64,000 nucleotides of DNA from Candidatus Microgenomatus sp. (lineage in GTDB: Bacteria; Patescibacteriota; Minisyncoccia; UBA6257; GWB1-50-10), in NCBI GenBank assembly GCA_020724805.1, contig DYGI01000001.1, positions 8,934 through 72,933 of the forward strand, written 5' to 3'. The notes below the pieces were generated by a model. That model saw nothing but the letters and a program-made list of their open reading frames with translations. It did no database searches and had not been told where the DNA came from. This document shows, piece by piece, positions 15,369 to 31,200 of the stretch (position 1 is its first letter; every line of letters begins with the position of its first letter). The position numbers were made by a program, and so were the translations under genes.

Positions 15369-15376
15369 AAACATTT

Positions 15377-15901: not shown

Positions 15902-16434
15902 GGCGTGCTTATATATCCTCCTTCTCCCACTACCACTTCCCGCTCGTCTCCGGTCCCCACGAGCCGAAGTGCAATTGTTCCTGTGTTATGTGTAACGAGA
16001 TAGGGAGATTCAAAAATAACATAACAGAGACGATTTTGATCGCACACCAAACGATTTTCATCAAAAAATTCCACGCGTCCATTCAACATAATCGTTTCCA
16101 AATCCTCATCACCTTCATCATATTCATAGTTTGCCGGACACACATCCTTAAAAAGGGTCATGGCCCGCGGTATTTCAAAGCGCACTCCGAATCCGCACGC
16201 GTCCGCTTCTCCATACCGCACATTCTTTTGCAGTGCGAACGATTTCGCACGGAACAAAATTCCCGCCACCCGCGCCTGCTCCGCGGCAAGCACTACTTGG
16301 TTATCGGTAGATCGGTTATAGGTGAATAGGAGACCGGAAAGAAAAAGGGTGATGGCAACCACGACGAGCGTCTCCACAAGCGTGAACCCCGCACTTTTGT
16401 GCAACTTTTGTATACTGGGTGCCTTGCGCCTCAT
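15898..16434 (-). CDS. type IV pilin-like protein
   Basis: Prepilin motif KSAG|FTLVETLVVVAITL; start moved to MRRKAPSIQ... (leader 16 aa). Confidence 0.5.
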   Translation of the reverse strand: MRRKAPSIQKLHKSAGFTLVETLVVVAITLFLSGLLFTYNRSTDNQVVLAAEQARVAGILFRAKSFALQKNVRYGEADACGFGVRFEIPRAMTLFKDVCPANYEYDEGDEDLETIMLNGRVEFFDENRLVCDQNRLCYVIFESPYLVTHNTGTIALRLVGTGDEREVVVGEGGYISTP

Positions 16435-16489
16435 CGCACAAAGGTGCGGGGTGAAACCATCTTTCATCCCCTTCAGTATAACCTCCGGG

Positions 16490-17392
16490 TTAGAAATTGA
16501 GGAGGCGGAAATACCAACTAAGAAGCGAAAATCCAAGTGTGATGGTGAGAAAAAAACCCGCGACAAGGAACGGCGCGAACGGGAGTTTGTCTCCCATTTT
16601 TTTTCTCCCCGTCATCATAAGGATACCTCCCCATAGCCCCCCGAGCACGAACGCGAGACCTGCAGCAACCGCAACGTCGGGGAACCCAAGCACAAACCCG
16701 GAAGCCGCCGCAAGTTTTACATCGCCAAACCCCATCGCCGCTCCCCGCTGAATGAGCGTGAAAAGCCAAAAAAACACACCCCCCACCAAGGCGCCCGCGA
16801 TATGAGAGAGCCAAACTCCTTCAAGAAAAGAGGGGGTGAAAAGGAGCGCAAAATGTTTGAGAAATGAAAAGCGAAACGCGGGAAGCGCATCTTGATGCAT
16901 CGCTACAAACGCAATGAGTCCAAACCCCAACACTACGAGCGAGATGTTGAGTTCATCCGGCACGATGTAGTGTTTAACGTCTATCGCCACAATCGCGAGC
17001 CATACAAGCGCAACCAAAAACCACAGCGCGAGATACCCGTAGTACCAAAGCGGCGCTTCAAGTGTGGGGACGCCGTGTATCCCATGCCACGAACTGAAAA
17101 AAAGTGGAATGCCGACCGCAAGCGCTCCAGCGAAAAGCTCCACCACCGGATATTGGCGCGAGAGGCGCGCGCCGCACGAACGACATTTCCCCGCTTGCAT
17201 CACGAACGAAATGAGCGGAATCAGCTCATGCCATCGTAGCGTGGTACCGCATGCCATACATCGGGAGCGCCCGCTCCATGCCGCGCGCGAAAAAAAGCTT
17301 CGCTCCGGTCGATACCGGAGCGTAAGCACGTTCACAAAGCTGCCTGCCGCAAGCCCGAACACGAAAAGTATCGCGTAGAACACGGGAACCAT
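16490..17392 (-). CDS. pilD: prepilin peptidase (A24 family)
   Basis: 300 aa; N-terminal CxxC...CxxC zinc ribbon, multiple TM helices, catalytic GFGDVKL motif. Confidence 0.85.
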   Translation of the reverse strand: MVPVFYAILFVFGLAAGSFVNVLTLRYRPERSFFSRAAWSGRSRCMACGTTLRWHELIPLISFVMQAGKCRSCGARLSRQYPVVELFAGALAVGIPLFFSSWHGIHGVPTLEAPLWYYGYLALWFLVALVWLAIVAIDVKHYIVPDELNISLVVLGFGLIAFVAMHQDALPAFRFSFLKHFALLFTPSFLEGVWLSHIAGALVGGVFFWLFTLIQRGAAMGFGDVKLAAASGFVLGFPDVAVAAGLAFVLGGLWGGILMMTGRKKMGDKLPFAPFLVAGFFLTITLGFSLLSWYFRLLNF

Positions 17393-17399
17393 TGCGGCA

Positions 17400-17840
17400 T
17401 TAACTCTTCACGCAATAGACCATATTGTCCACATCATCGCAATTACACCCATCGCCATAGTTTGTGATGCCGTTCCGAATATTCTCGTTCACATGACTTA
17501 CTCCTGTTTGCCTCTCCCCTTCAAGGCACGCCCCGAGAATGTAGCTGTTCGGCGAAAGCCGCTCATACCCATAAGGCATCACCGAACCGGTAAACGGATC
17601 AAGCACGGGGTCATATGGAGGCGCTTCGAGCGACTCATACATGTTCTGCGGGTAAGATTGGTTGCTTGAGTAGTAAATTTCGAGCGCATTTTGAAGCTGC
17701 CGGATGTCCGCGATGCGCCGCGTATCACGCGCATCTTTTCTCACATCCCCCAACCCCACCAAAATGATCGAGGAAAGCAGCCCGATGATGGCTACCACCA
17801 CGAGCATTTCTATCAAGGTAAATCCTGAACGAGATTTCAT
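17400..17840 (-). CDS. pilA: type IV pilin
   Basis: 146 aa; leader MKSRSG|FTLIEMLVVVAIIGLL; C-terminal Cys pair. Confidence 0.8.
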   Translation of the reverse strand: MKSRSGFTLIEMLVVVAIIGLLSSIILVGLGDVRKDARDTRRIADIRQLQNALEIYYSSNQSYPQNMYESLEAPPYDPVLDPFTGSVMPYGYERLSPNSYILGACLEGERQTGVSHVNENIRNGITNYGDGCNCDDVDNMVYCVKS

Positions 17841-17853
17841 TGTGGCTCACTAC

Positions 17854-18279
17854 CTAGTCGGACGTAATACAGTATGTGCGGCTCGTTGCAATGTTCGTGC
17901 AAGCACCCACGTCGGTGCTCCAAGTCCCCGAACTACAGTTTACGGTGCCCGCAAATCCTCCCTGTGGACGATTGCCCGCATCCTCGAGCAGCGTGCCCAC
18001 CGCATATCCCTGACCGGAATTTATTACGCAATATGCGTAGTCATCTCCCGAAGGATCAGTGGTAGGAACTGCAGCGCCCGCACCGGGCAGCTGGTATGCA
18101 GTAGTGTAATTCGATTCAAACCATGTTTGGATCTGCCGCACGTCGGAAACTCGCTTTGCATCACGAGCTTTTTGTCGCGCACCGCCTACTCCCACCACCA
18201 CGACCGAGGAAAGAAGCCCTACGATCGCGACCACCACGAGCATTTCGATGAGCGTGAAACCTTTTCGATTGTTTTTCAT
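17854..18279 (-). CDS. pilA: type IV pilin (second paralog)
   Basis: 141 aa; leader MKNNRKG|FTLIEMLVVVAIVGLL; divergent C-terminal globular part with Cys. Confidence 0.8.
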   Translation of the reverse strand: MKNNRKGFTLIEMLVVVAIVGLLSSVVVVGVGGARQKARDAKRVSDVRQIQTWFESNYTTAYQLPGAGAAVPTTDPSGDDYAYCVINSGQGYAVGTLLEDAGNRPQGGFAGTVNCSSGTWSTDVGACTNIATSRTYCITSD

Positions 18280-18327
18280 TGTTTCTGGAATCGTTTTTCC
18301 TCGACCTTTCCGAACGTTTCCATTATA

Positions 18328-19533
18328 TCAGAACGCTTTGGTGAGATTATAGAGCGGGAGAAGAATTGCCGCGAAAAGTCCCGCGATCATGAGACCGATG
18401 ACCACAAGGAGCGCGGGCTGAATGAGTTCCACCAGATTAGATACCGTGTCATCCACTTGACGATTGTAGAACGAGGATACTCTCTCAAGCATCGACTCCA
18501 GACGTCCGGTGGACTCCCCCACCGCTACGAGTTGATACACGAGCGGAGGAAAATACGGCGCGCCCTTCAGGGCCTGTGAAAGAAGAAGTCCTTTACGAAT
18601 TGATTGCGCCACTTCATGAAGAATGTCTTCATATACGTAGTTTCCGATGGTGTGCGAAGAGATCTCGATGGCTTGCGGAATGGTGAGTCCGCCCTTGATG
18701 AGTACCCGCGCCGATTCCGCAAACCTGGCAATGTAGACCTTCTGGAGCAACTTCCCGACGAACGGGATGCGCAAACTCACTTCGTTCACTACCGCTTTCC
18801 CCTCCGCGGTCTGCACATAATCAATAATAAGCGCGATGAGCACCGCAACCACGATAAGCAACACCCACCAGTAATTTGACATGAACACGCCCACCGCGAG
18901 GAGAATGCGCGTGAAAAGCGGGAGCTCCACCGCGACTTCGGTAAAAATAGGGGCGATTTGTGGAAGCACCATCGTAACCATAATGACCACCACGAGCACA
19001 AAAAGTCCGACCACGAACGCAGGGTACACCAGCGCGTTCCTCAATTTCCCGATGAGAATCGATTGCTTTTCTTGGTAATCCGCGAGGAAGTCCAAAACCT
19101 CCGAAAGACGCCCCGTGACTTCGGCGGACTTCACCATATTCACGTAGAACTCGTTGAACACGCCGGGGTGGCGCGCCAAAGCTTGGGAAAGCGAGAACCC
19201 CGATTCGATATCCGAAGCAACTTCCGACACCACCTCTTTCAAGACCGGCTTTGTCACCTGCTCGTAAAGCGAGCGGAGCGAGTCACCGATCGGAACCTGC
19301 GAAGCGATGAGCGTGGCAAACTGGCGCGTGAATATCATAAGGTCCGCGATCTTCACACGCTCGAAAAAATCGGTGATACGGTCCCACCATTGGTCCCCCT
19401 TCACCGGTTCGATGGTAAGCACATAAAGGCCGTGCGAGAGGAGTATGTTCACCGCCGCTTCACGCGACGATGACTCCACGTCCCCAACTTGGAGCTCGCC
19501 TTGTGCGGTTCTCGCTTTGTAGTTGAACTTCAT
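18328..19533 (-). CDS. pilC: type IV pilus inner-membrane platform protein PilC (GspF family)
   Basis: 401 aa; duplicated GspF domain, three TM helices. Confidence 0.85.
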   Translation of the reverse strand: MKFNYKARTAQGELQVGDVESSSREAAVNILLSHGLYVLTIEPVKGDQWWDRITDFFERVKIADLMIFTRQFATLIASQVPIGDSLRSLYEQVTKPVLKEVVSEVASDIESGFSLSQALARHPGVFNEFYVNMVKSAEVTGRLSEVLDFLADYQEKQSILIGKLRNALVYPAFVVGLFVLVVVIMVTMVLPQIAPIFTEVAVELPLFTRILLAVGVFMSNYWWVLLIVVAVLIALIIDYVQTAEGKAVVNEVSLRIPFVGKLLQKVYIARFAESARVLIKGGLTIPQAIEISSHTIGNYVYEDILHEVAQSIRKGLLLSQALKGAPYFPPLVYQLVAVGESTGRLESMLERVSSFYNRQVDDTVSNLVELIQPALLVVIGLMIAGLFAAILLPLYNLTKAF

Positions 19534-19814
19534 CCCGTTAGAGACAGGAAGCGCTTCAAGCGATTCTTGAGATAGCGCTTGCCCATGCCTGATTTGAGAT
19601 ATACCTCACGCGACCTTGCATCGGTGATATTTTTGCACATTTCATAGTAGACAAGCTCGAAAGGGCCACGGCCATTTGTCCACCCCACATGTTCGGTGTT
19701 GTGTTCTTTGAAGCGCTTCCGTAGGTCATCGGTAAGTCCAGTATACCAGCGTTTATCTTTAGTACTACGTAGGATGTAAACATAATAAACTTTGTTGTCT
19801 CTCACGGGATTCAT
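19530..19814 (-). CDS. GIY-YIG nuclease family protein
   Basis: 94 aa; VYYVYIL...GIY-YIG core (KVYYVYILRS...YTG...R..EH). Confidence 0.7.
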   Translation of the reverse strand: MNPVRDNKVYYVYILRSTKDKRWYTGLTDDLRKRFKEHNTEHVGWTNGRGPFELVYYEMCKNITDARSREVYLKSGMGKRYLKNRLKRFLSLTG

Positions 19815-19818
19815 GACC

Positions 19819-20889
19819 TCACGTCCTTTCGAGCAAAATCCTAAGTTCCGCGGGGTTCAGCGAGAACGCCTCGGCGACCTCAAGCGATATTTCTTTGCGT
19901 TTCAGAAGGTTCACGAGCGAGCGATTGAGCGAAATCATCCCTTCTTGCACGCTTGTTTCTATCACGAGATCGATTTGGTAGATTTTCCGCTCCCGGATGA
20001 GGTTTCTGATGGCGGGGTTTGTGAGCATTATTTCGGCCGCAGGGATACGCCCACCGCCGATGCGGGGCACGAGCCGCTCGGAAATGATGCCAACCAATGT
20101 GGAAGCGAGTTGGGAGACTACCTGCCCCTGTTGTTCGGGCGGGAACGAGTCGATGATGCGGTCGATGGTCTGTGACGCAGAGTTCGTGTGAAGCGTGGAG
20201 AACACGAGGTGGCCCGTTTCCGCCGCGGTCATCGCGGTCGCGATGGTTTCGGGGTCGCGCATTTCCCCTATCATGATGACGTCGGGGTCCTGACGGAGAA
20301 TGGCGCGAAGCGCCTCGTGAAACGAGAGCGCGTCACCGCCAACTTCGCGTTGAGAGATGATGCAACGGTCCTGCGAGAAAAGATATTCGATGGGGTCCTC
20401 TACGGTAATAATGTGCTCGGTGCGGGTGTGGTTTATCGCATCACACACCGCCGCAAGCGTGGTGGATTTCCCGTGCCCTGCGGGTCCCACCACCAACACG
20501 AATCCTTGGTGAAGTTTCGAGAAATCATGGAGAAGCGGCGGGAGATTGAGTTCGTCGATGGTGCGTATCTGCGCGGGAATGAGTCGGAGCGCTGCCGCGA
20601 GAAAACCGCGCTGATAATACACGTTCACGCGAAAACGGGCCTTGTCCTCATAGTTAAAGGAAAAGTCGAGCTGTTTTATTTTTGAAAATCTCTCCTTTTG
20701 CTCCGGCGTAAGAAGCGCGGACACGAGACCTTCCGCATCTTCTCGCGTGAGAATGGGCTCCTTCTCGAGAGGCACGAGAACGCTGTCCACGCGGAGCGTG
20801 GGCTTCCTCCCCACCGCGATGTGGAGATCTGAAGCTCCCTGCCGCGCGGTCACGAGAAGCAATTCATTCAGTTTACTGGGGTAGTCCAT
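19819..20889 (-). CDS. pilT: twitching-motility ATPase PilT
   Basis: 356 aa; Walker A GPAGHGKST, Asp box, His box of PilT/PilU family. Confidence 0.85.
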   Translation of the reverse strand: MDYPSKLNELLLVTARQGASDLHIAVGRKPTLRVDSVLVPLEKEPILTREDAEGLVSALLTPEQKERFSKIKQLDFSFNYEDKARFRVNVYYQRGFLAAALRLIPAQIRTIDELNLPPLLHDFSKLHQGFVLVVGPAGHGKSTTLAAVCDAINHTRTEHIITVEDPIEYLFSQDRCIISQREVGGDALSFHEALRAILRQDPDVIMIGEMRDPETIATAMTAAETGHLVFSTLHTNSASQTIDRIIDSFPPEQQGQVVSQLASTLVGIISERLVPRIGGGRIPAAEIMLTNPAIRNLIRERKIYQIDLVIETSVQEGMISLNRSLVNLLKRKEISLEVAEAFSLNPAELRILLERT

Positions 20890-20894
20890 ATTTG

Positions 20895-22625
20895 TTACGC
20901 GGTTTCTCTCATTACCTCTTCCATCGACACGAGACCTTTCAGCGCTTTCAATACACCATCCTGACGTAAGGTTACCATACCTTGACGCTTCGCTTCGTCC
21001 ACGAGCGCCCCTTCGGTGAACGACTTGGTTACGAGGTCGCTCACCTCACGCGTCATGCTGAAAAGTTCGAAGAGTGCCACGCGGCCTGCGGTTCCCTTGC
21101 CGCGACATACCGGACAATTTTCCCTTGGCGCTGCCGTCCAAATGGTATAGGGCGTTTTCATCTTTGCGGAGGTTTTAACCGCAGGAGGGAGCGCCGCGAG
21201 CGTTTCGTCGATAAGATCCGCCACCTCTTTTGGCGCTTTCGTTTCTTTTTTGCACTCCGGGCACAGCCGAAGTATGAGGCGCTGCGCCATCATAAGATTC
21301 AGCGATGAAGAGAGAAGAAAGGGCGGCACCTCGAGATCGATGAGGCGCGGGATAACGCCAATGGCGTTATTGGTATGAATGGTGGAAAGCATCACGTGAC
21401 CAGTTAAAGCGGCGTTCACCGCGAGGTTCGCGGTTTCCGTATCGCGTATCTCACCAACCATGATAACGTCGGGGTCTTGCCGAAGTATCTGACGGAGACC
21501 GGAAGCGAAAGTGTATCCTATTTCCGGATGCACCTGCGACTGGTTCATGCCTTCCACGAAATACTCGACGGGGTCTTCCAAAGACACCATGTTCACCGTT
21601 TCCTTGTTCAAGCGCTGCATCATTCCATAAAGCGTGGTGGTTTTCCCCGACCCAGTAGGACCAGAGATAAGTATCATCCCGAACGGACGTTCCATGGCTC
21701 GCTCCACGGCGGACAGGTGATACGGTTCAAGACCTATTTGGTCCAAACCTTTCATGCCGGTCGCGGGGTCGAGCACGCGAATGGCGACTTTTTCACCCGC
21801 AGGCGTGGGGAACGTGGATACTCGGTAATCGATGTCGCGCCCTCCGATGAGCGTTCGGAAACGACCGTCTTGAGGAATGCGTGTTTCGTCGAGTTTCAAA
21901 CGGGCGAGCACTTTCACGCGTGAGACCACCGGCTGCGCAAGCGAGGGAGGAAGCGAGCTCACCTCCTCGAGACGTCCATCGATGCGCATTCTGATGCGCA
22001 CCCGCGTACGCTGCGGCTCGATATGAATGTCCGAAGCTCCTCCTTCCACCGCGTGACGAAGCGTAGAAGCGACTATTTTAATGATGGGTGCATCTTCGCC
22101 CGCGGTTGCTTCTTCAAGGAGTACACGGTCTTCAGTGTCAGCACTAGCGCCACGACTAATTTCTTTCACCGCGGATTCCACTTCGGTGCGGTACGGCGCG
22201 TAGCGACGCCACGCGGCGTTCAAGGTAGACGGCGTTATAAGATAAACACCTAAACTCACTCCCTCACGTTTTGCAATGAACCGGAGCGCTTCCTGTGCGC
22301 GAGGATCGTCGGGCCGCAGCATGCCGACCACCAACATATTCTTCTCTCGCCCCACCGGCATCACCCGGTAAGTAAGCGAGGTTTCACGCGGAATAGCCTT
22401 GAAAAGATCATCGGGAATTGCCGCGACATCCACGGCACGATACGGTACCCCCAAAAGTTCCGACTTTACCGCCGCCACTTCCTCTTCCGAAACAGAACGG
22501 CGCGCATAGAGCGCGTCTTCAAGTGAGGTGCCGCCGAAACGGGTCGTCTTTTCAAGCTCGGCCTTCTCAGCGTCGCGAAGAACCCCCTTTGAAACGAGTG
22601 CTTGTACAAGTTCCTGATCGGTCAT
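20895..22625 (-). CDS. pilB: type IV pilus assembly ATPase PilB/GspE
   Basis: N-terminal GspII domain, Walker A GPTGSGKT, tetracysteine CPEC...CPVC; track ORF starts at TTG 22637, ATG at 22625 preferred. Confidence 0.85.
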   Translation of the reverse strand: MTDQELVQALVSKGVLRDAEKAELEKTTRFGGTSLEDALYARRSVSEEEVAAVKSELLGVPYRAVDVAAIPDDLFKAIPRETSLTYRVMPVGREKNMLVVGMLRPDDPRAQEALRFIAKREGVSLGVYLITPSTLNAAWRRYAPYRTEVESAVKEISRGASADTEDRVLLEEATAGEDAPIIKIVASTLRHAVEGGASDIHIEPQRTRVRIRMRIDGRLEEVSSLPPSLAQPVVSRVKVLARLKLDETRIPQDGRFRTLIGGRDIDYRVSTFPTPAGEKVAIRVLDPATGMKGLDQIGLEPYHLSAVERAMERPFGMILISGPTGSGKTTTLYGMMQRLNKETVNMVSLEDPVEYFVEGMNQSQVHPEIGYTFASGLRQILRQDPDVIMVGEIRDTETANLAVNAALTGHVMLSTIHTNNAIGVIPRLIDLEVPPFLLSSSLNLMMAQRLILRLCPECKKETKAPKEVADLIDETLAALPPAVKTSAKMKTPYTIWTAAPRENCPVCRGKGTAGRVALFELFSMTREVSDLVTKSFTEGALVDEAKRQGMVTLRQDGVLKALKGLVSMEEVMRETA

Positions 22626-22649
22626 TGTAATAGACAAATAACTGATGGT

Positions 22650-22721
22650 TGGTGACGAGCGACATATATTCCAACGCTAATCTTTGAGTCACTCGTCATT
22701 AGTTACTAGTCACTAGTTGTT
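22650..22721 (-). promoter_or_regulatory. putative operator/promoter upstream of pil operon
   Basis: Inverted repeat gtgacgag...ctcgtca plus TAGTnnnTAGTnnnTAGT periodic motif upstream of pilB. Confidence 0.3.
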
Positions 22722-23009
22722 TTAGAGCGCGAACGGGTTTGCCTTGCCGGTACGAGGCGAGGGTGCCGTGCCCGCAAAATCGCGAAGCCCTTGGAATATT
22801 GGGGAATCCACTACCTCGCGGGGATTGAACCGCACTGAAGAAATGGCGCGGAGTCTTTCGAGTTCTGCGGGCGCCACCACATCGATGAGCTCGGGCTGTT
22901 TGAAAAAGAGGTAATACCCACCGAAAAACACGACGGCGAGAAATACCACAACCGAAAGTATGGTAATCCAATTTGCCTTCTTCTTTTCCTGTTCGACAAC
23001 AATAGCCAT
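22722..23009 (-). CDS. hypothetical single-pass membrane protein (pilus cluster)
   Basis: 95 aa with one TM helix, sits between pilO and pilB where pilP/pilQ would lie in diderms. Confidence 0.35.
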   Translation of the reverse strand: MAIVVEQEKKKANWITILSVVVFLAVVFFGGYYLFFKQPELIDVVAPAELERLRAISSVRFNPREVVDSPIFQGLRDFAGTAPSPRTGKANPFAL

Positions 23010-23073
23010 AAATTAAATCAAAGTGTAAAAATCAAAATGAAAAACTTTCATATTTCCATTCTTCATTTTCCAT

Positions 23074-23643
23074 TTACTCTTGGTAGTACATCTCGACCTC
23101 AAGTAAGAGCGTATCACCAAAATTGCCGGCGCCGCGCGGAGAGTAACTCATATCCGTTACATTTGCCACGCGCACGCTTGTTTCTAAAAGTTTCACAAAT
23201 TGTTTCAGATTTGCGTACGGTCCCTCCGCGCGCACTTTTACCTCAAGCGTACGGAGCCTCTGTACCACCGAGGTTGCGCCCGGCGCATTGCGCGAGCTTG
23301 GAGTTGGCGTAGAAAAATCGAGTCCGGTAATTATCACTCCCGCGGTCCTGCCAATCGCTTCTATCTGGCGAAGCGCGGAAATGGAAGAAGCTCCATCGGG
23401 AATTGCGCGGTTTACGGTTCCTTGGAGTTGTGAGAAGTTTTTGAACTCGTTCAGAAGATCTTTTACTTGGTTCACTGCTTGCTCCTGGTTCGCAAAAAGG
23501 GCCTCTTTCGACGCGAGAATGCTTCTCACCTCTCCCACGGCGGTCATTTCTCCCCTGATGAGCCCGAGATAGACAAAAAACGCGCCCAAAAGGAATATGA
23601 GACCGACGAGAATGGAAAGAACTCTTTTTGTGGATACTCGCAT
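23074..23643 (-). CDS. pilO: PilO-like pilus assembly protein
   Basis: 189 aa, N-terminal TM, coiled coil, position after pilN. Confidence 0.5.
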   Translation of the reverse strand: MRVSTKRVLSILVGLIFLLGAFFVYLGLIRGEMTAVGEVRSILASKEALFANQEQAVNQVKDLLNEFKNFSQLQGTVNRAIPDGASSISALRQIEAIGRTAGVIITGLDFSTPTPSSRNAPGATSVVQRLRTLEVKVRAEGPYANLKQFVKLLETSVRVANVTDMSYSPRGAGNFGDTLLLEVEMYYQE

Positions 23644-23651
23644 AGTTTGAA

Positions 23652-24227
23652 TTACAGTGTGGGTCGCTCGAAAAATGAATCGCGAAATATAATGGTGAAT
23701 GAAAATGTGGTTCTCGCCGCGGCATTGGTATCACGGAGAAGCACTTTATTCACCTCGGGCGCCGCTTCGAACGCGGCAAGCTGTTCACCTACGGCCGCAA
23801 GAGACGGCGCGTCACCGCGAAGCGAAAGTATTAACTCTTCTGCATTCAAGCCCGCCTCGGTGAACTGCACCTCGGGAAGGGTGTACTTCTCGAGAAATGA
23901 GAACGTGTTCCCGGCATATCCGTGGCGGTCAAGGACGGATTTTAAATTCACGATCTGCGAGTAAAATCCTACAAATTGGTCCTGCTCGGTTGCGGTCACT
24001 TCGCTCGTAAGCGCTGCAATCGCCGCATCCACGTCCGCAATGCGGTCCTCAAGGTACGATGAATACCCAAGTCGAATGCCAAAATATACAAGAATGGAAA
24101 ATGCGAAGAGCGCAATGGAAAACACGAGAAGCCTCCACGGCCACCCGACCGGGAGCCGCTCGGATACGAATTGTTCCGCCACCGTGTTCTCGGGAGCGCC
24201 GCCCATTTGGTTGATACCGTTCGTCAT
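23652..24227 (-). CDS. pilN: PilN-like pilus assembly protein
   Basis: 191 aa, N-terminal TM, position after pilM. Confidence 0.5.
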   Translation of the reverse strand: MTNGINQMGGAPENTVAEQFVSERLPVGWPWRLLVFSIALFAFSILVYFGIRLGYSSYLEDRIADVDAAIAALTSEVTATEQDQFVGFYSQIVNLKSVLDRHGYAGNTFSFLEKYTLPEVQFTEAGLNAEELILSLRGDAPSLAAVGEQLAAFEAAPEVNKVLLRDTNAAARTTFSFTIIFRDSFFERPTL

Positions 24228-25336
24228 GATATGGGTAATGAATAAGGTTTGAGCGCAAGGCCAGCGGCAACGGCAAGTTCGTGGCTTAGGGTACGCATTG
24301 CGGGCTCCAATCCTTCGCTATACCGCACCTTCGCAAATGGCCTCGCCGCTTCGTGAGGAATTTTAAGCGCTTCGGCGCAGTATCGCTCGATGCCGAGGAG
24401 ATTTGCTCCTCCCCCCACCAACGTGAAACGTTCCACCGGATGCCCGAACGTGCGCTCATAACTTGCGCGCACGCGCTCACACTCACGTATTATAACATCC
24501 AAAAAAGGCAGAAGTGAGGTGGATAACTCAAATTCTCCCTCACTCACCATGAGTCCGCGACGACGTTTCAATTCCTCCGCGCGCCACGATGACACCCCAA
24601 GATTCCGCGCGATTGCCTGCGTTAAAGTTACCGCACCGTAATCAGCTTGGCCTACCGTACGCACCGTAGTGCCTTCGGTAACCACAATCGAGGTTGATTC
24701 GGCGCCAATGTCCACAATCATCATGTGACGGCTCGCGGGCGTGGTAATCGCACGCGCAAGAGCCGTATGCTCCACCTCCAATGCCTCGAGTGTGAGGCCT
24801 GCAGCGTGAAAGAGCTCACGATAGGTTTTTACAAGCTCATTCGGTACCGCAACAAGAAGAATGCGTTGGAATTTCCTTCCTTGTTCGTTCTCATACTCTC
24901 CGACTTTTTCCCACTCAAAGGTCACTTCTTTGACGGGCATCGGAATGAATCGTTGCGCTTGAAACCCGATGGATTTTTCGGTCTCCTCGCGCGTCATGAA
25001 TGGCATCTCAATAGGCACCGCGAATGAGGCAAACGCGGGCACGGACGCGATAACGCGCTTTGCTTTTGGCTTCACTTCGTTCAAAAGCGTTTCGAGGAGC
25101 GGCGCGGCGTCGCGTGCCGAGAGTTTTAATGAGCTCGATTGAACAACCGCGTTCGGACGCCGGAGATATTCCTTCGTAGAAAGAAGTCCATAGTTCTCAA
25201 GCGAAACAACGTCCCCCTTTCGCGAGAGCTCCACAAGCTTCAGCGACACCGTGCCGACATCCACTCCGAGCACGCGCCCAAAAGAAAAGAAATTCCTGAT
25301 ATCGGTGAAAAAATCCTTAACAAAACCAAGGTTCAT
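24224..25336 (-). CDS. pilM: type IV pilus assembly protein PilM (actin-like ATPase fold)
   Basis: 370 aa; LGVDVGTVSLKLVEL N-terminal actin-fold motif. Confidence 0.8.
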   Translation of the reverse strand: MNLGFVKDFFTDIRNFFSFGRVLGVDVGTVSLKLVELSRKGDVVSLENYGLLSTKEYLRRPNAVVQSSSLKLSARDAAPLLETLLNEVKPKAKRVIASVPAFASFAVPIEMPFMTREETEKSIGFQAQRFIPMPVKEVTFEWEKVGEYENEQGRKFQRILLVAVPNELVKTYRELFHAAGLTLEALEVEHTALARAITTPASRHMMIVDIGAESTSIVVTEGTTVRTVGQADYGAVTLTQAIARNLGVSSWRAEELKRRRGLMVSEGEFELSTSLLPFLDVIIRECERVRASYERTFGHPVERFTLVGGGANLLGIERYCAEALKIPHEAARPFAKVRYSEGLEPAMRTLSHELAVAAGLALKPYSLPIS

Positions 25337-26216: not shown

Positions 26217-26726
26217 ATGAAAAATACTCGCCTCGCAAAATCAATCGCGCAAATGGCGAAAATTGAGCAACGGGCGCGGCGACTTGCAACTCCCCACAAA
26301 AAAGGATTGGAGAGTCTTCTGGTGTACACTATCGATGGAATTCATAACCGTTATATCCATCAGATAATTGACGAGTATGGATACCCAACAGAAAAAAGCG
26401 TCGGGAAGGAGGGGATGAAAAAGTTCTGGCTCTTGGTGCAACACCAAGATTCCGACGTGACGCTTCAAAAAGCCTGTTTGAGAAAATGCGACTTTGCACC
26501 AAAGGAGAAGGCATATCTCATCGACCGGGTTCTTGTGAACACGGGTAAGAAACAGAGATATGGAACCCAGATGAGGCGGACGATAAATGGGTCTCTTGCC
26601 CCTCGCACAATCACGCAAAAGAAAGGGGTTGATGCGCGACGAAAAAGTGTGGGACTTGGAACACTTGAAAAGTATATACGTCTCGCAAACAAGCGATTTG
26701 GTAAGAAAATCAGAAAGAAAAATTAA
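26217..26726 (+). CDS. hypothetical protein
   Basis: ~170-aa ORF, no family recognised. Confidence 0.4.
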   Translation: MKNTRLAKSIAQMAKIEQRARRLATPHKKGLESLLVYTIDGIHNRYIHQIIDEYGYPTEKSVGKEGMKKFWLLVQHQDSDVTLQKACLRKCDFAPKEKAYLIDRVLVNTGKKQRYGTQMRRTINGSLAPRTITQKKGVDARRKSVGLGTLEKYIRLANKRFGKKIRKKN

Positions 26727-26755
26727 AGAGCCAATTGCGCGCGCAATTGGCTCTT
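26727..26755. terminator. palindromic hairpin terminator between convergent genes
   Basis: Perfect palindrome aagagccaattgcgc|gcgcaattggctctt. Confidence 0.5.
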
Positions 26756-26758
26756 CGA

Positions 26759-28036
26759 TTACTTCATGAGCACCATCTTCTTCGTCGCTACGAAGTTTTT
26801 GGCTTCGAGGCGGGCAAAGTAGATGCCGGAGGGAAGGTTCGTCGCGTCCCACGTTGTTTTGTGGGTGCCGGCGGCAACCTCTTCCGCGGCCAAGGTCGCG
26901 ACTTCCTGACCGAGGACATTCACCACCGTGACGGTAATGAACGCTCGTTCGGGAATCGTGAACTGGATGGTCGTGGTCGGATTGAAGGGGTTCGGGTAGT
27001 TTTGATACAACTGGTAACTCGTCACCTGCGACGCGTCACCAATTTGTTCCACCCCGGTCGTGCCCGAGAACTTCAGGAGCCAAAGTCCGTCGCTCGTGCC
27101 GACATACACCTCATCCGAATCGGCTACGAAAATAGACCAGACACTATAATTCGAGAGACCGCAGTACTCCCACGTCGTCCCACGATCGCTCGAACGATAC
27201 ACTCCCCCGGGAGAAAACCCCGCGTAGAGATTTCCATCTTGATTCGCGGTGAGATCACCGACGTAGCGCGGAAGAACTCTTTCTCCAACGCGCTCCCAGC
27301 TTTCTCCTCCGTTTGTTGAACGGTGGATGCCGGTACCGGCGTAGTCGTCGCCGGTGTAGAGCGTGCCGTCGAAAGTGACGATCTCCGAAACTTTCCGCGT
27401 CGCGGGGAAACCGTTGTTCTTATAAACCCAGGTCTTCCCTGAGTCGGAAGAAAAAAGGACTCCCTGACCCATTGCCGCCACGAAAAGATTTCCATTCTTT
27501 TCCTTCACCACACCGGAGATGTAAGGGGTAGGGGTATGAAGCCCTTCCCACGTCGCACCTCCGTTGTAGGAGCGGAAAAGATCGTCGCCGTACGCGTTCG
27601 CGTAGAGCGTATCTCCAAACACCAAGATATCGCCCACCCACGCATCGCTCGGCAACCCGTTCGGCAACCGCGTCCATGTATCGCCGTTATCGCTCGAAAC
27701 CGCTACGCCTTGAGTGTGAAAACCGGCGTAAAGCTTCTGGGAAGAACAAAGCGACAGCTCGTACACCCGCTTTTCGGGTGTTATAAGCTGGGACCACGTT
27801 GTTCCGCGGTCAACAGAACGGTAGATCGCGGAATCGGTCGTCCCTGTGAAGAGATGGCCGCTCGCGTTCTTTGCGATGGACGTCACCGTCACATTCTTGC
27901 CGGTCACTTCGAAAGAAAGTGAACGCGGCCAGGGACGTTCGATCGTCACTTTCGCGTCCCTCAACTCCTGCGCCCGCACCGAAAAGGCGGGCACGATGCT
28001 CACAACTGCGAGCAAGAACATCATGAGCCTTTTCAT
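26759..28036 (-). CDS. BNR-repeat beta-propeller protein with T9SS-type (Por_Secre_tail-like) C-terminal sorting domain
   Basis: Signal peptide; six S-x-D-x-G-x-T-W BNR repeats; C-terminal ~80 aa (YQNYPNPFNPTTTIQFTIP...GIYFARLEAKNFVATKKMVLMK) matches the T9SS type A CTD pattern. Confidence 0.65.
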   Translation of the reverse strand: MKRLMMFLLAVVSIVPAFSVRAQELRDAKVTIERPWPRSLSFEVTGKNVTVTSIAKNASGHLFTGTTDSAIYRSVDRGTTWSQLITPEKRVYELSLCSSQKLYAGFHTQGVAVSSDNGDTWTRLPNGLPSDAWVGDILVFGDTLYANAYGDDLFRSYNGGATWEGLHTPTPYISGVVKEKNGNLFVAAMGQGVLFSSDSGKTWVYKNNGFPATRKVSEIVTFDGTLYTGDDYAGTGIHRSTNGGESWERVGERVLPRYVGDLTANQDGNLYAGFSPGGVYRSSDRGTTWEYCGLSNYSVWSIFVADSDEVYVGTSDGLWLLKFSGTTGVEQIGDASQVTSYQLYQNYPNPFNPTTTIQFTIPERAFITVTVVNVLGQEVATLAAEEVAAGTHKTTWDATNLPSGIYFARLEAKNFVATKKMVLMK

Positions 28037-28161
28037 ACATCCTCCAATCAGTTATATAGTTGGTAAATCAGTCAGTGGTTTATTCTGAGAGTATTATACC
28101 ACGAAAAATGCTCAGAAGTCAAATTACATCAGTGTATGACCCGCGTGTCAAGCATTACATA

Positions 28162-28192
28162 TGAAAAGCCGCTCAGTGAGCGGCCTTTTGCG
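28162..28192 (-). terminator. rho-independent terminator after giant surface-protein gene
   Basis: Hairpin aaaagccgctca-gtgagcggcctttt with T-runs. Confidence 0.55.
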
Positions 28193-28203: not shown

Positions 28204-31200
28204 TCACCGTTCTTCGAAGAACTGGCGAGAGGTGTGTGTGTCGCGGCAATCGTTGTTGTTCCGACATTGGCCATATCCTTCGAACCTTGCACCGTCTTTC
28301 ACCTGGCGAGGGTCATAGGTATTGTTCGGACCACCGGGCGGAACTACGACACGCGTGCCGCTCACGCTGTCGCAGAAGCTGTTTCTGGTACAGATACGGA
28401 GACCACTGAAAGAGGTTGGGGTTCCTCCGCTCGGGAGCGTCTTCCCCGCGCCCTCAAGCGCATAGGCGGTTTCTCCTCCAGTATAGACCGCCTTCACACG
28501 GTACACGTACACAGTGTTCGGCTCGAGCCCGGTGTCGCGGAGAACGGACGGGTACTGCGCGGGGCTCAAGGGAGGGCGTACATGCCTCGCAAAATATGCA
28601 TCAATATCGATGGGACCTCCGCCCGGCACGTTCGCAATCTCGATCCTTGCAAATACGGTGGCCACCTTTGTCGCTATGTCTTGAAACTTTGTGAATGCAC
28701 TACGGAAGACGTCGGCTATTTTCTCCGCCATATAGGTCACGCCGGTAATTCCACCGTGTATTTTTGCGTAGAAGTTATCAAGTGGAGATTTTTGGGCAGA
28801 TGAAGTGACAAACGCTACCGTGTAAGAAAGTGATCCTTCTGGAGGCAAGATGCCGCTTGAAATGCTCATGTTCCCCGGCGATCCACCGCCACTGTTTCCG
28901 GCCGAGTTTGACCATGAAATTTGGGAGAAGCTTCCTCCAGGAGGAGCGCCGGAGTTATAGTAAAAGAAATACCTCCCTTCTTCGGCTCCCGTAATGCTCC
29001 AAGGAACATTCTTGGTGCCCGGTCCAACCAGAATGGATTCGGAGAAGAAGCTCTCGATTGCGAAATTGAAGCTTGTTTCGACCGGACTTCCGTTCAAGGT
29101 TGCGGCCACGTTCACTGTGCCTCCTCCACCGCCTCCCACCGTCGCAAAGTTTGCGGTAACCGTGGCGTCCGCGCCGATGGTAAAGGCACAGGTTGCATTC
29201 GCCGGATTGGCACATTGGCCGCCGGTCCAACTTGAGAACGTGTACCCGGTCGCGGGCGCCGCAGTCAACGATACGGGGTCACCACTTGCCAATTCCGCCG
29301 CACACGTCGTGCCGCAGTTTATCCCATTGCCCGTGATGGTCCCTCCGGCACTCGGGGATTTTACGACCGAAAGCGTCACGTTAGTAGTTACGCTCACGCT
29401 ATTCGAGTTTGCGGAATATATTCTCGTAGTGGGGACGTTCGGATCAAAACGATACGCGCGCACTTCGTATGAATACGTAGTGCCGCTTGAGAGCCCGGAG
29501 TCGGCGTAGGTGACGGTCCTTCCCTTGCCTGCCGAAGGATTGGTGAAATCGTGGGCCAACGTACCGTTACGGAGAAGTTCAAATCCGTTTTCACCGCCGG
29601 AATTATCTCTAAACGAGAGGGATACCGATCCCGTTTCTATACTTGTCCATTGGAGATTTGAAGGTGTGGCTGGTTTTGTTGAAGCTCTCGCAGTCGTGGA
29701 ATACCCGCCGCACACCGTTGTCTCAGGATCGCCGCTCTCGACGCGCGGGTCGCTCCCCTTGAGGAGATTCACGCGAATGAAGGAGCATGCACGGGTACGG
29801 ACTGTGTACGTCGTGCCCTCTTCAAGCCCTCCCATACTCCATGCGTACGTATTAATGTCGCTCTCAGGATCCGTATCCTCGGGGAATGCCTGATTTACCT
29901 CCGAGAACGAAGGGTCATAGTCGTGCGTCCGGGGCTCGTAAACGCCATCGCCATCGACGTCCGCGAAGGGAGTGCTTGAGGTGCTCCGCTCGAACGAGTG
30001 ATAGAAGGGACCCATTTCGTTCTCGCGGTTCGAGTCGTTCCGCCAAGTGAGTCTCAAGGATGAGTCGCTTTCGGTTGCCACCCGCGGGTCGAGGAGGGAC
30101 GAGTCGCGTGGCGTCACCTTAATACGCTCGACAACGAAGGAGTGTTCCCTTATGGCGTTGTCTTTCCAGTTCACGTAGAGTTCACGGTCGCTCACGGGCC
30201 ACACATTGAGAAGGGATGGCGCATCGGAAGACTCGACGGCGGTGGAACACCTCTGAGCATTGCTCTGGACGCTTCCCGAGGTCATTAGGTAATAGTACGT
30301 GCCGGGCACAAGATTTATGTTTTGGTAGAAGCCGCTTCCGTTTGCGAGCTCCGGAGACGACGCTACCAGCGTCCGGCTCCCGCCAAGCACTCCCGATTCG
30401 GTGTTGCTGCGGTAAAGAGAAAGCGTGTGCGCTCCGGAAATATTCTCCCACCAACCTACGGTGATGGCGGAAGTGGTGCGACTGGAACAATTGAGAATGA
30501 TTCGTGGAAGGTCTTCCGGTTGCGTTTGCCCAGCTTTAATCACGGACTCCGCCACTTCACTTGATTTGGTCGCGCGGAGGAAAAATCCATATGTGGAATT
30601 CGAGGCAAGATTTGGTACCACAACATTATCTACAACTCCTTGTGTTTTTGCGGACGGAACAATAACTCCACTGTTTAACTCAAAGTTGACCCTTTCTACG
30701 CCTTCAGGGTTCGTGCTTTTTGTTTGCCAAAGTTCTACCTCGTCATAATCGACCGGGTTCTTGAATTCTAAGGTGAGCGACGTTCCCGTGGGATTGATAT
30801 TTGCGCTCCTAAGATCCGGCGCCGGAAGCCCAGAGAACATGATCCATCCTACACCGTCACCGCCCCACGCCTCTCCTGTGAGCACTTTATTGGTTGGGCT
30901 CCACTGAGCAGTTTCGTATTTCAATCCGTATGTAGGCTCCCCCGGTCTGGTTGATAAACTCACCCACGTTCCCGTACCGAGCTTTGCCCACCCCGAAACC
31001 GCGCCATCCGCAGTATTGAAACGCGCTTCACACGGAGCCGCGGGGCATCCCGTCAAATCTCCCGCGTTAAACGAAAGCCAGCCGGCATACGGATTCCATG
31101 CGGAACCGGAAAGCTGACCGGAGTCCTCGTCCGCCAAAATACCGTAGCCGATGGAGTCCGCCGACCGCGTGGCGTCTCCCCACGCGGACGCGATGGCATC

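What the first reader, a model, noticed from the sequence alone, without database searches (positions are those of the whole stretch)
26759..28036. T9SS-type C-terminal sorting domain on a BNR propeller protein in a genome whose pilus system lacks a secretin
The last ~80 residues (YQNYPNPFNP...TVTVVNVLGQEVATL...GIYFARLEAKNFVATKKMVLMK) fit the type A Por secretion C-terminal domain pattern of Bacteroidota/FCB outer-membrane cargo. The type IV pilus locus in this window, however, has no pilQ/pilP, and the other genes (amidase_3, NlpC/P60, single-gene glyQS) suggest a monoderm/CPR-like cell. Either this lineage uses the domain for a different anchoring or sorting route, or the organism is an unusual diderm, or the gene was acquired horizontally.
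Basis: partly seen in the sequence, partly recalled or inferred. Interest (0 to 1): 0.6.

Follow-up and report, generated by a model that had tools for sequence, protein, structure and literature searches.

The report
T9SS sorting tail in CPR bacterium
A secreted beta-propeller protein of a tiny candidate-phyla-radiation (CPR) bacterium, a group thought to have a single membrane, really carries the C-terminal tag that Bacteroidetes-type bacteria use to send proteins through their outer membrane; related CPR genomes keep the same tag on several surface proteins with no matching secretion machinery in sight, so the tag probably does a different, still unknown job there.

Summary
ORF 26759-28036 (-) encodes a 425-aa protein: Sec signal peptide, 7-bladed BNR/Ycf48-like propeller, disordered linker and a C-terminal domain that passes PF18962 (44 bits, cutoff 27) and TIGR04183 (47.8, cutoff 23). 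Its model matches solved T9SS CTDs, though the fold is generic. LeuS and synteny place the organism in Parcubacteria (CPR). The window has a secretin-less type IV pilus cluster and no T9SS or outer-membrane genes.

The gene is neither a chimera nor a recent import. The same protein and neighbours occur in three separate assemblies, one a 570-kb contig. Orthologues down to 39-40% identity keep the order giant fn3 protein, BNR-CTD, ComF, pilM operon. All non-CPR relatives are FCB-group, mostly Ignavibacteriota, so the origin is old horizontal transfer.

In this clade the tail is modular. It also sits on HYDIN/DUF1573-Ig cargo, occurs at six or more sites in one Brennerbacteria genome (including 3' orphan fragments), is under purifying selection (dN/dS 0.25-0.30), and has not drifted from the FCB consensus.

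Best reading: a Sec-exported surface protein whose T9SS-type tail was co-opted as a T9SS-independent retention or binding module. Whole-genome absence of T9SS could not be tested.

The parts
26759..28036 (-). CDS of the 425-aa secreted BNR propeller protein with a T9SS type A CTD
   Evidence: ORF; Pfam and NCBIfam hits; the identical protein occurs in three assemblies with the same neighbours
27968..28036 (-). Signal peptide codons 1-23 (MKRLMMFLLAVVSIVPAFSVRA|Q). Nucleotides 27968-28000 are nearly invariant in four orthologues.
   Evidence: Sec-type n/h/c regions read from the sequence. 70-87% aa identity across orthologues. 88-100% identical codons at conserved residues against a 49-50% baseline. 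DNA alignment. Motif found only in this family.
27062..27901 (-). Seven-bladed BNR/Ycf48-like beta-propeller (residues 46-325), the fast-evolving part
   Evidence: AF2 pLDDT mostly above 90. Foldseek: Ycf48 TM 0.70-0.74, BT4663 sensor propellers, PorZ. Identity falls from 58% to 29% among CPR orthologues, with pN 0.51 against 0.02-0.10 for housekeeping genes.
26999..27061 (-). Variable linker (residues 326-346), disordered at 326-337
   Evidence: pLDDT below 50; 18-36% identity
26762..26998 (-). T9SS type A C-terminal domain (residues 347-425): NYPNPFNP..., LPSGIYFARL, ...KKMVLMK
   Evidence: PF18962 44 bits, TIGR04183 47.8 bits. Beta-sandwich model. Matches to solved T9SS CTDs. 68-73% identity in all main-clade orthologues. 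dN/dS 0.25-0.30.
28093..28122 (-). Own sigma-70-type promoter: TTGACT, 18-nt spacer, TATAAT with TG extension. It is conserved as a cassette in most orthologues and paralogues.
   Evidence: 11 of 12 consensus matches plus TG. Alignment of five orthologues. The exact cassette is in L004, L005, L010, L014, L094 and in L096, where it drives a different CTD cargo.
28145..28152 (-). Conserved upstream CTTGACAC box of unknown role (second -35-like element or operator)
   Evidence: Invariant in five orthologues; coordinates
28040..28045 (-). Ribosome-binding site GGAGGA
26725..26756 (-). Intrinsic terminator (14-bp stem plus T-run) directly after the stop codon, so the gene is monocistronic
28168..28185 (-). 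Terminator hairpin of the upstream giant gene, conserved in orthologous loci
28204..32634 (-). Giant secreted fn3/Flg_new_2 protein (1476 aa), the invariant upstream partner gene of BNR-CTD
   Evidence: Pfam. It lies immediately upstream of the BNR-CTD gene in L001, L005, L006, L010 and the paralogous L094, and adjacent but divergently oriented in L011. Conserved C-terminal ~100 aa ending RQFFEER and a hypervariable region.
32713..33813 (-). 366-aa membrane-anchored Gly/Thr-rich protein with no family assignment; conserved position upstream of the giant gene (surface-protein island)
   Evidence: Synteny; no Pfam or NCBIfam hit; sequence
14221..25336 (-). Context: type IV pilus cluster (pilM, N, O, 95-aa gene, pilB, pilT, GIY-YIG, pilC, two pilins, pilD, three minor-pilin-like genes) without pilP or pilQ
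   Evidence: the same order recurs in related CPR contigs

Best explanation
The gene encodes a probably abundant, Sec-exported cell-surface protein of a Parcubacteria (CPR) bacterium. An ancestor of a narrow CPR clade acquired a propeller-plus-CTD gene from an FCB-group donor resembling Ignavibacteriota. The gene then settled in a surface-protein island beside the type IV pilus operon, always paired with a giant fn3 protein, and has been inherited vertically since. It is transcribed alone from a near-consensus promoter. SPase I probably removes the signal peptide after VRA, and the protein emerges on the outer face of the single membrane, where no T9SS is needed. The fast-evolving propeller is the exposed ligand-binding face. 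The conserved C-terminal beta-sandwich, a true member of the T9SS type A CTD family by sequence, has been co-opted as a T9SS-independent module that holds the protein on a conserved partner. That partner could be the cell wall, the surface layer or the neighbouring giant protein. The module is used as a portable tag on several cargo types in this clade. Shown here: domain identity, native CPR context, synteny, FCB origin, purifying selection, modular reuse. Inferred: export route, surface location, the retention or binding role, and absence of T9SS from the whole genome.
For: Domain identity: and all nine other CPR CTD sequences scanned pass TIGR04183 at 27.8-49.9 bits. CPR identity: in the LeuS top 120, the named hits are CPR/Parcubacteria apart from one generic '[bacterium]' label, nearest Brennerbacteria and Jorgensenbacteria at 75-76%; window content is typical CPR housekeeping with T4P and no secretin. 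Not a chimera: the identical protein and neighbours occur in three assemblies, including a 570,864-bp contig. Vertical inheritance: conserved order ClpP, 157-aa gene, ~370-aa gene, fn3 giant, BNR-CTD, ComF, pilM operon in L001, L005, L006, L010 at 39-61% protein identity. FCB origin: all non-CPR homologues are FCB-group; the CPR main clade is monophyletic at 67/100 and nested among them. Selection: CTD dN/dS is 0.25-0.30 with unsaturated dS; CTD pN is 0.15-0.20 against 0.51 for the propeller and 0.43-0.53 for neighbouring surface genes; main-clade CTD identity is 65-76% at 33-37% propeller identity, against an FCB baseline of 51 +/- 6%. Modularity: HYDIN/DUF1573 'choice-of-anchor D' cargo of 408 aa (L096) and 650 aa (L012) carry the same tail, the former behind the same promoter cassette; one Brennerbacteria genome has at least six CTD-coding regions. 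No T9SS, OM, LPS or secretin family was seen in the window or in about 140 kb of related CPR loci. Literature: T9SS is confined to the FCB superphylum (PMC11205867, PMC12421860) and Patescibacteria are proposed to lack an outer membrane (PMC12102498).
Confidence: 0.5

Rival explanations
1. Host-machinery mimicry. The CPR cell is an epibiont of an FCB-group (Ignavibacteriota-like) host. Its Sec-secreted CTD proteins keep a true T9SS signal because the tail docks onto T9SS surface components of the host (PorV shuttle or attachment complex), or is even processed by them, to mediate attachment.
For: CPR CTDs have not drifted from the FCB consensus: 49% identity to FCB CTDs against 51% among FCB CTDs, and they score like FCB members on an HMM built mostly from FCB sequences. 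The closest non-CPR homologues are Ignavibacteriota, many from groundwater or sediment MAG sets like those yielding CPR. The tail is conserved while the exposed propeller diversifies. The promoter is strong. The gene lies next to the T4P cluster. That T4P mediates host contact in other CPR is my own background knowledge, not tested here.
Against: No host is known for this clade and no co-occurrence or physical-linkage data were examined. Retention of consensus motifs is equally explained by the fold's own requirements and a fairly recent origin. CTDs are normally read in the periplasm or at the translocon, not from outside the cell.
Confidence: 0.1
2. Evolutionary relic. The tail simply came along with a useful propeller gene acquired from an FCB donor and persists as a stable but functionless C-terminal Ig domain.
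For: HGT origin. No cognate machinery seen. The fold is generic. Orphan 3' CTD fragments without signal peptides show that CTD-coding DNA also decays or rearranges.
Against: dN/dS is 0.25-0.30 on the tail. No orthologue among eight intact CPR BNR-CTD copies has lost it. It is far better conserved than the propeller and neighbouring surface genes. It is re-used on unrelated cargo (HYDIN/DUF1573 Ig) in the same clade, which a passive passenger would not explain.
Confidence: 0.15
3. The organism does have a T9SS-like apparatus and an outer membrane, or an unrecognised functional analogue, encoded outside the window, and the protein is an ordinary T9SS cargo.
For: The tail passes every sequence test for a type A CTD. 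Only 64 kb of a genome of at least 570 kb could be read.
Against: LeuS and synteny place the organism in Parcubacteria. The pilMNO operon continues into pilB without pilP or pilQ in three genomes. No OM or T9SS family appears in about 200 kb of CPR DNA inspected. Published surveys confine T9SS to FCB and propose no OM in Patescibacteria (PMC11205867, PMC12421860, PMC12102498).
Confidence: 0.05
4. The conserved ends serve mainly as recombination handles. Promoter, signal-peptide DNA and CTD DNA flank a hypervariable cargo segment, so alleles or cargo can be swapped by homologous recombination (surface variation), with orphan CTD fragments as leftovers or donors. This may act in addition to any protein-level role.
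For: Signal-peptide codons are 88-100% identical at conserved residues against a 49-50% baseline (p 1e-5 to 2e-3), and CTD codons 60-67% (p 0.011-0.12). pS is 0.06-0.30 (signal) and 0.41-0.51 (CTD) against 0.6-0.8 elsewhere. L094_434 combines a type-2 signal peptide with a main-type CTD. The promoter cassette is shared across orthologues, most paralogues and a different cargo. Orphan 3' fragments lie beside TA genes and transposases.
Against: The CTD excess is modest and not significant in every pair. There are only a handful of genomes and no direct recombination breakpoints were mapped. Only one CTD is seen in this window, and no second copy from the 570-kb contig appears among the top hits.
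Confidence: 0.15
5. Assembly chimera or binning contamination: an FCB gene mis-joined into a CPR contig.
For: The gene's relatives outside CPR are all FCB.
Against: The identical gene and the same flanks occur in three separate assemblies. Orthologues sit in syntenic CPR contexts in at least five further MAGs or assemblies. GC content is unremarkable. The gene has its own promoter and terminator conserved among CPR copies.
Confidence: 0.01

Closest known systems
T9SS type A CTD cargo proteins of the FCB superphylum, specifically the 'YCF48-related / T9SS type A sorting domain-containing' BNR-propeller proteins of Ignavibacteriota, Balneolales, Kapabacteria and Bacteroidota
   Same: N-terminal Sec signal, BNR/Asp-box propeller and a C-terminal PF18962/TIGR04183 domain with the same NYPNPFNP, PSGxYF and KKMxLLK motifs. 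27-35% identity over the propeller and about 49% over the tail.
   Different: Most FCB relatives are about 700 aa with two propellers, whereas the CPR proteins have one (420-445 aa). The host genome is a Parcubacteria with a secretin-less T4P and no T9SS or OM genes in view. The tail is better conserved than in FCB (65-76% against 51%). The genes are paired with a giant fn3 gene and share a promoter cassette.
PorZ (PG1604) of Porphyromonas gingivalis, PDB 5m11
   Different: PorZ has two propellers, is itself a T9SS component and binds A-LPS for the PorU sortase. None of these partners is evident here, and sequence identity is only about 15%.
Ycf48/HCF136 photosystem II assembly factor (PDB 5oj3, 2xbg)
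   Same: A single 7-bladed BNR-type propeller of the same size (TM 0.70-0.74 normalised to the target).
   Different: No photosynthesis context, only 14-18% identity, and Ycf48 has no CTD. PF14870 and NF010237 score below their cutoffs.
'Choice-of-anchor' surface proteins (NCBIfam NF012200 family) and, by analogy, C-terminal anchors of monoderms (LPXTG/sortase, SLH domains)
   Same: Variable exposed domains combined with an interchangeable, conserved C-terminal sorting or anchoring module. The L096 cargo matches choice-of-anchor D at 58.6 bits, above its cutoff of 45.
   Different: In this CPR clade the anchor chosen is a T9SS-type CTD, whose only known sorting machinery belongs to diderm FCB bacteria. 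No sortase-like or SLH system was identified.

Membership tests
T9SS type A C-terminal domain (PF18962 / TIGR04183), domain family | Profile HMM score above the curated cutoff | tested here: met
   PF18962 44 bits against 27 and TIGR04183 47.8 against 23. The nine other CPR CTD sequences scanned score 27.8-49.9 on TIGR04183.
T9SS type A C-terminal domain (PF18962 / TIGR04183), domain family | Located at the extreme C-terminus, about 70-90 aa, after a linker | tested here: met
   Residues 347-425 of 425, preceded by a disordered linker at 326-337
T9SS type A C-terminal domain (PF18962 / TIGR04183), domain family | Seven-strand Ig-like beta-sandwich resembling solved CTDs | tested here: met
Functional T9SS cargo (secreted through SprA/Sov) | N-terminal Sec signal peptide for export to the periplasm | tested here: met
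   MKRLMMFLLAVVSIVPAFSVRA|QE has n, h and c regions, read from the sequence and conserved in orthologues. No dedicated signal-peptide predictor was available.
Functional T9SS cargo (secreted through SprA/Sov) | T9SS core genes (porK/L/M/N, sprA/sov, porV, porU, porT etc.) in the same genome | not testable with these tools
   None in the 64-kb window or in about 140 kb of related CPR loci. The rest of the 570-kb contig could not be read.
Functional T9SS cargo (secreted through SprA/Sov) | Diderm envelope (outer membrane; BamA, LPS) | not testable with these tools
   No OM gene in the window. The T4P cluster lacks pilP and pilQ. The lineage is Parcubacteria, proposed to lack an OM (PMC12102498).
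Functional T9SS cargo (secreted through SprA/Sov) | CTD cleaved by PorU and cargo attached to A-LPS or released | not testable with these tools
   Needs proteomics
BNR/Asp-box beta-propeller (Ycf48-like / Sortilin-Vps10-like) | Repeated SxDxGxxW Asp-boxes and a 7-bladed propeller fold | tested here: met
   Six Asp-boxes (invariant S/D/G/W columns). PF02012 and PF15902 are above cutoff. 7 blades in the model and Ycf48 TM 0.70-0.74.
F510_1955 family glycosylhydrolase (NF045728) / GH74 | Equivalog HMM above cutoff; for GH74, two propellers forming a catalytic cleft | tested here: not met
   NF045728 scores 85.2 bits against a cutoff of 175. There is a single propeller only. GH74 structures align only at the fold level, 15-19% identity.
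Candidate Phyla Radiation / Parcubacteria genome | Marker-protein affinity and gene-content signature | tested here: met
   In the LeuS top 120, the named hits are CPR apart from one generic '[bacterium]' label. Synteny with MAGs labelled Liptonbacteria, Brennerbacteria and Jorgensenbacteria, with 83-96% identity for ClpP, PilB/T/C and PilM. Short IF-2, single-gene GlyRS, secretin-less T4P.

The most novel reading that the evidence does not exclude
A clade of monoderm-type Parcubacteria maintains a small, strongly expressed and recombining family of Sec-secreted surface proteins. They carry a T9SS sorting domain that is still indistinguishable from those of FCB bacteria because the tag is read by someone else's machinery. 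On this reading the epibiont mimics its Ignavibacteriota-like host's T9SS cargo to dock onto the host's PorV or attachment complex. Alternatively, CPR possess an undescribed CTD-recognising sorting or anchoring pathway that works without an outer membrane.
Probability: 0.12. Interest if true: 0.88.

Novelty: new variant of a known kind. Interest (0 to 1): 0.55.

Why it matters
The T9SS C-terminal domain is treated as a diagnostic marker of T9SS-dependent secretion across an outer membrane and as specific to the FCB superphylum. Here it is stably inherited, under selection, multi-copy and placed on different cargo in a CPR clade that, as far as can be seen, has neither an outer membrane nor a T9SS.

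This matters in three ways:
- CTD-based prediction of T9SS secretomes and of diderm status in MAGs can mislead.
- It names concrete, probably abundant surface proteins of uncultured Parcubacteria: a hypervariable propeller paired with a giant fn3 protein next to the pilus genes. These are natural candidates for host or substrate contact, an open question for CPR biology.
- It gives a testable case of a secretion signal being co-opted, or of cross-species use of a secretion signal.

NCBI's pipeline already labels such CPR proteins 'T9SS type A sorting domain-containing'. I found no paper discussing them in seven full-text searches.

Tried and rejected
- **GTDB genome scan** with the CPR alignment.
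- **Metagenome scan** for the invariant signal-peptide DNA. It gave 0 hits and missed even the source JGI contig, so that collection lacks these samples.
- **AFDB50 fold search** for organism names was unavailable.
- **RNA-structure explanation** for the invariant signal-peptide DNA. A GCCCGC/GCGGGC hairpin forms, but the region's folding z-score is only -1.4. No covariation test is possible because the stem never varies.
- **Enzymatic role.** NF045728 glycosylhydrolase is well below cutoff and GH74 needs two propellers. Rejected as unsupported.
- **'Bacillota' MAG hit L029** as a second monoderm example. The context is non-diagnostic and the protein is a 716-aa double propeller. Left open.
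- **Number of transfers into CPR.** The NJ tree leaves deep nodes unresolved (all-CPR clade 37/100).
- **Strong DNA-level conservation of the CTD.** On testing it is modest (p 0.011-0.12). Only the signal-peptide effect is robust.
- **T9SS-like or sortase-like signatures** in the conserved unannotated neighbours. None found.
Full report
**1.

The ORF lies exactly at 26759..28036 on the minus strand and encodes 425 aa.
- Residues 347-422 match Pfam PF18962 (Por_Secre_tail) at 44 bits (gathering cutoff 27, E 2.8e-11, almost the full profile) and NCBIfam TIGR04183 at 47.8 bits (cutoff 23).
- BNR and Sortilin-Vps10 models also pass their cutoffs, and six SxDxGxxW Asp-boxes are invariant across orthologues.
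- An AlphaFold2 model (mean pLDDT 84.8) shows a short N-terminal helix (the signal peptide), a seven-bladed propeller at 46-325, a disordered linker at 326-337 and a seven-strand beta-sandwich at 340-425.

**2.
- In the LeuS top 120, every taxon-named hit is CPR/Parcubacteria (one further label is a generic '[bacterium]'). The nearest named ones are Brennerbacteria and Jorgensenbacteria at 75-76%, followed by Patescibacteria group, Paceibacterota, Liptonbacteria and Sungbacteria.
- The window holds 18 tRNA genes and no rRNA.
- Its protein genes are housekeeping (LeuS, MetG, alpha2-type GlyRS, PheS, TyrS, GatA, LigA, RecG, a 574-aa IF-2, ClpP), cell-wall hydrolases (Amidase_3, NlpC/P60) and a type IV pilus cluster.
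- The pilus cluster runs pilM, pilN, pilO, a 95-aa gene, pilB, pilT, GIY-YIG, pilC, two pilins, pilD, then minor-pilin-like genes. It has no pilP or pilQ.
- No T9SS, secretin, Bam, Lpt or Lpx family was found anywhere in the window.
- Only 64 kb of a contig of at least 570 kb could be read. Genome-wide absence is therefore inferred from lineage, not shown.

**3. The gene is native to a CPR clade**
- The identical protein sits on five contigs. The three shown come from three separate assemblies with the same neighbours: JGI 3300029893, a 570,864-bp contig; NCBI GCA_020725245.1, 47.8 kb; and JGI 3300029892.
- Its closest homologues are single-propeller proteins of 419-455 aa, and the two with a source name are labelled CPR: P0002 at 61% (Ca. 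Liptonbacteria), P0003 at 60%, P0014 at 40% (Ca. Brennerbacteria), P0027 at 39%, and P0083.
- Their loci share the gene order TyrS, ClpP, ~157-aa gene, ~370-aa gene, giant fn3 protein (1092-1476 aa), a 150-167-bp gap, BNR-CTD, variable genes, ComF, then the pilM operon.
- Housekeeping proteins in these genomes are 83-96% identical, yet synonymous sites are saturated at pS 0.6-0.8. The arrangement is therefore old and inherited, not a recent insertion or an assembly artefact.

**4. The origin is horizontal transfer from the FCB group**
- All other homologues are about 700-aa double-propeller CTD proteins. Where a source names them, they are FCB-group (Ignavibacteriaceae, Balneolales, Kapabacteria, KSB1, Bacteroidota) or carry only a generic 'bacterium' label.
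- The GTDB genome scan returned 79 loci that were almost all FCB, with Ignavibacteriota dominant. The best full-length identity was 32%.
- In a neighbour-joining tree the main CPR clade is monophyletic (67/100) and nested among FCB sequences. Deeper nodes are unresolved, and a second CPR type (L011_432, L014_437) does not group robustly with it (all-CPR 37/100).
- One transfer or a few transfers are both possible.

**5. The tail is maintained and modular in this clade**
- Across main-clade orthologues the signal peptide stays at 70-87% identity and the CTD at 68-73%, while the propeller falls from 58% to 29%.
- CTD dN/dS is 0.25-0.30, with dS not saturated.
- CTD pN (0.15-0.20) is far below that of the propeller (0.51) and of the neighbouring surface genes (giant 0.43, 366-aa gene 0.53).
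- This CTD subtype is intrinsically well conserved in FCB: 51 +/- 6% at about 32% propeller identity, 95th percentile 60%. The CPR main clade exceeds that, at 65-76% CTD identity for 33-37% propeller identity.
- The CPR tails are also no further from FCB tails (49%) than FCB tails are from each other. The tail has not drifted from the T9SS consensus.
- A CTD profile search found CTD-only ORFs in MAGs labelled Brennerbacteria, Jorgensenbacteria and 'Patescibacteria group' among its best hits.
- One Brennerbacteria genome (GCA_016183535.1) carries two fn3-giant/BNR-CTD gene pairs (divergently oriented in L011) and four short CTD ORFs on two contigs.
- The short ORFs lack signal peptides and begin inside the last propeller blade or an Ig domain. 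They are 3' gene fragments, and they lie beside ParE, HicA and YafQ toxin genes and transposases.
- The tail also sits on a different cargo class: a 650-aa DUF1573/HYDIN-Ig protein in L012 and a 408-aa protein in L096.
- L096 was found by searching metagenomes for the family's promoter cassette. Its cargo has a signal peptide, an unknown N-domain, a poly-Pro linker, a HYDIN/DUF1573 'choice-of-anchor D' Ig domain (58.6 bits, cutoff 45) and the tail (TIGR04183 41.3 bits; PF18962 26.4 bits, just under its cutoff of 27).
- The L096 cargo lies at the syntenic site beside ClpP and a homologue of the window's 159-aa gene (39% identity, E 4e-41).
- All nine other CPR CTD sequences scanned pass TIGR04183.
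- In this window the CTD is single-copy.

**6. Expression signals and mosaicism**
- The gene is monocistronic. The giant gene ends in a conserved terminator hairpin (28168-28185).
- A conserved CTTGACAC box follows (28145-28152), then TTGACT, an 18-nt spacer and TATAAT with a TG extension (28122-28093, 11 of 12 consensus), a variable 5' UTR, a GGAGGA RBS (28040-28045), and a 14-bp-stem terminator directly after the stop codon (26756-26725).
- The exact promoter cassette (TAATATTGACTTT ... TGGTAYAAT) is present in three of the four other main-clade loci (L004, L005, L010), two of the three second-type copies (L014, L094) and the L096 cargo; the window's own copy, L006 and L011 carry diverged versions.
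- At residues where the amino acid is conserved, identical codons make up 49-50% in housekeeping genes, 88-100% in the signal peptide (p 1e-5 to 2e-3), 60-67% in the CTD (p 0.011-0.12) and 34-46% in the propeller.
- L094_434 joins a type-2 signal peptide (...GWAQ) to a main-type CTD that is 81% identical to those of P0003 and P0027.
- Together with the orphan fragments, this suggests recombination between family members at the conserved ends. The evidence is strong only for the signal-peptide segment, and no breakpoints were mapped.

**7. Function of the cargo**
- The propeller resembles Ycf48 (TM 0.70-0.74), the periplasmic sensor propellers of Bacteroides hybrid two-component systems, and PorZ.
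- The glycosylhydrolase equivalog NF045728 scores far below its cutoff (85 against 175). GH74 enzymes need two propellers.
- A binding role is more likely than a catalytic one. This is inference.
- The giant fn3 partner has a cleavable-type signal peptide, conserved regions at about 481-640 and 801-840, a conserved C-terminal ~100 aa ending RQFFEE[RQ], and a hypervariable stretch at about 1081-1320.
- Its constant pairing with BNR-CTD, including in a paralogous copy, makes it a candidate docking partner for the tail. Nothing tests this.

**8. Mechanism I commit to (confidence about 0.5)**

A strongly transcribed, Sec-exported surface protein whose variable propeller contacts a ligand. Its T9SS-type tail, inherited from an FCB donor, has been co-opted as a T9SS-independent retention or binding module and is used as a portable C-terminal tag in this CPR clade.
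- Shown: domain identity, CPR context, synteny, FCB origin, purifying selection, modular reuse.
- Inferred: export route, surface location, the retention role, absence of T9SS genome-wide.

**9. Rivals**
- Host-T9SS mimicry by an epibiont of an FCB host (about 0.1). It is attractive because the tail has not drifted from the FCB consensus, but no host data exist.
- A functionless relic (about 0.15). Selection and reuse on other cargo argue against it.
- A cryptic T9SS or diderm envelope (about 0.05).
- Conserved ends acting mainly as recombination handles (about 0.15). This is compatible with the main reading.
- An assembly chimera (about 0.01, effectively refuted).

**10. Novelty**

NCBI's pipeline already names such CPR proteins 'T9SS type A sorting domain-containing'. 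Seven full-text searches found no paper that discusses T9SS CTDs in CPR/Patescibacteria. I rate it a new variant of a known kind: a true type A CTD family member operating, apparently, outside the only system known to read it.

Noticed in passing
window 19530-19814 (-), between pilT and pilC: A 94-aa GIY-YIG gene is embedded in the pilus operon in all related genomes. Between L001 and L005 its synonymous divergence (pS 0.31) is half that of its neighbours (about 0.65), which suggests recent exchange or mobility of this small nuclease gene.
   Followed up: partly
window 27968-28000 (-): A 33-nt stretch inside the signal-peptide codons (AGCATCGTGCCCGCCTTTTCGGTGCGGGCGCAG) is almost invariant in four orthologues despite saturated synonymous divergence elsewhere. 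It can form a GCCCGC/GCGGGC hairpin, but the regional fold z-score is only -1.4.
   Followed up: partly
window 27968-27970 (Q23); window 6399-7049 (+); giants in L005 and L006; L096 4179-5405: Several predicted secreted proteins of this CPR clade have signal peptides ending in A|Q (VRA|Q, GNA|Q, VKA|Q, TNA|Q, SFA|Q). This recalls the Bacteroidetes 'Q-rule' of N-terminal pyroglutamate (PMC5837995). Whether it is a clade-wide rule was not counted.
   Followed up: no
L011 6616-6888, 10001-10351, 11786-12283; L094 10001-10330; L012 10001-10408; L014 7169-7552; fragments in L010 7245-7373, L012 10985-11383, L011 9257-9478: Orphan 3' fragments encode only the last propeller blade or Ig strand plus a CTD, with no signal peptide. 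They are scattered beside ParE, HicA and YafQ toxin genes, an rve integrase and transposase genes in related CPR genomes. P0126 and P0083 share an 8-aa insertion in the tail.
   Followed up: partly
window 28204-32634 (-): The giant fn3/Flg_new_2 protein has a mosaic conservation profile. Residues ~481-640 and ~801-840 and the last ~100 aa (ending RQFFEER) are conserved, ~1081-1320 is hypervariable, and its length ranges from 1092 to 1476 aa among orthologues.
   Followed up: partly
window 28145-28152 (-): An invariant CTTGACAC box lies about 23 nt upstream of the -35 hexamer in five orthologues. It could be a second promoter element or an operator.
   Followed up: no
L029 9089-11239 (GTDB record titled 'Bacillota bacterium MAG74') and L023 ('Acidobacteria bacterium'): Propeller-plus-CTD homologues occur on contigs of MAGs labelled with non-FCB phyla. 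The L029 neighbours (peptidase M2, aldo-keto reductase, MFS, topoisomerase IB) do not settle whether the label is right.
   Followed up: partly
window 9334-9861 (+) next to 8891-9334 (+): A Peptidase_C39-like papain-fold protein directly follows an NlpC/P60 hydrolase, with the start of one overlapping the stop of the other by one base. This may be a cell-wall or host-wall attacking pair.
   Followed up: no
window 39911-40375 (+) and 42175-42678 (-): Two GreA/GreB-type genes lie within 3 kb. The first lacks a recognisable N-terminal coiled-coil domain.
   Followed up: no
window, whole: There are 18 tRNA genes in 64 kb, in small clusters at 610-993, 3391-3845, 8588-9961, 38543-39775, 45039-45608 and 48992-50626. 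This is a high density.
   Followed up: no
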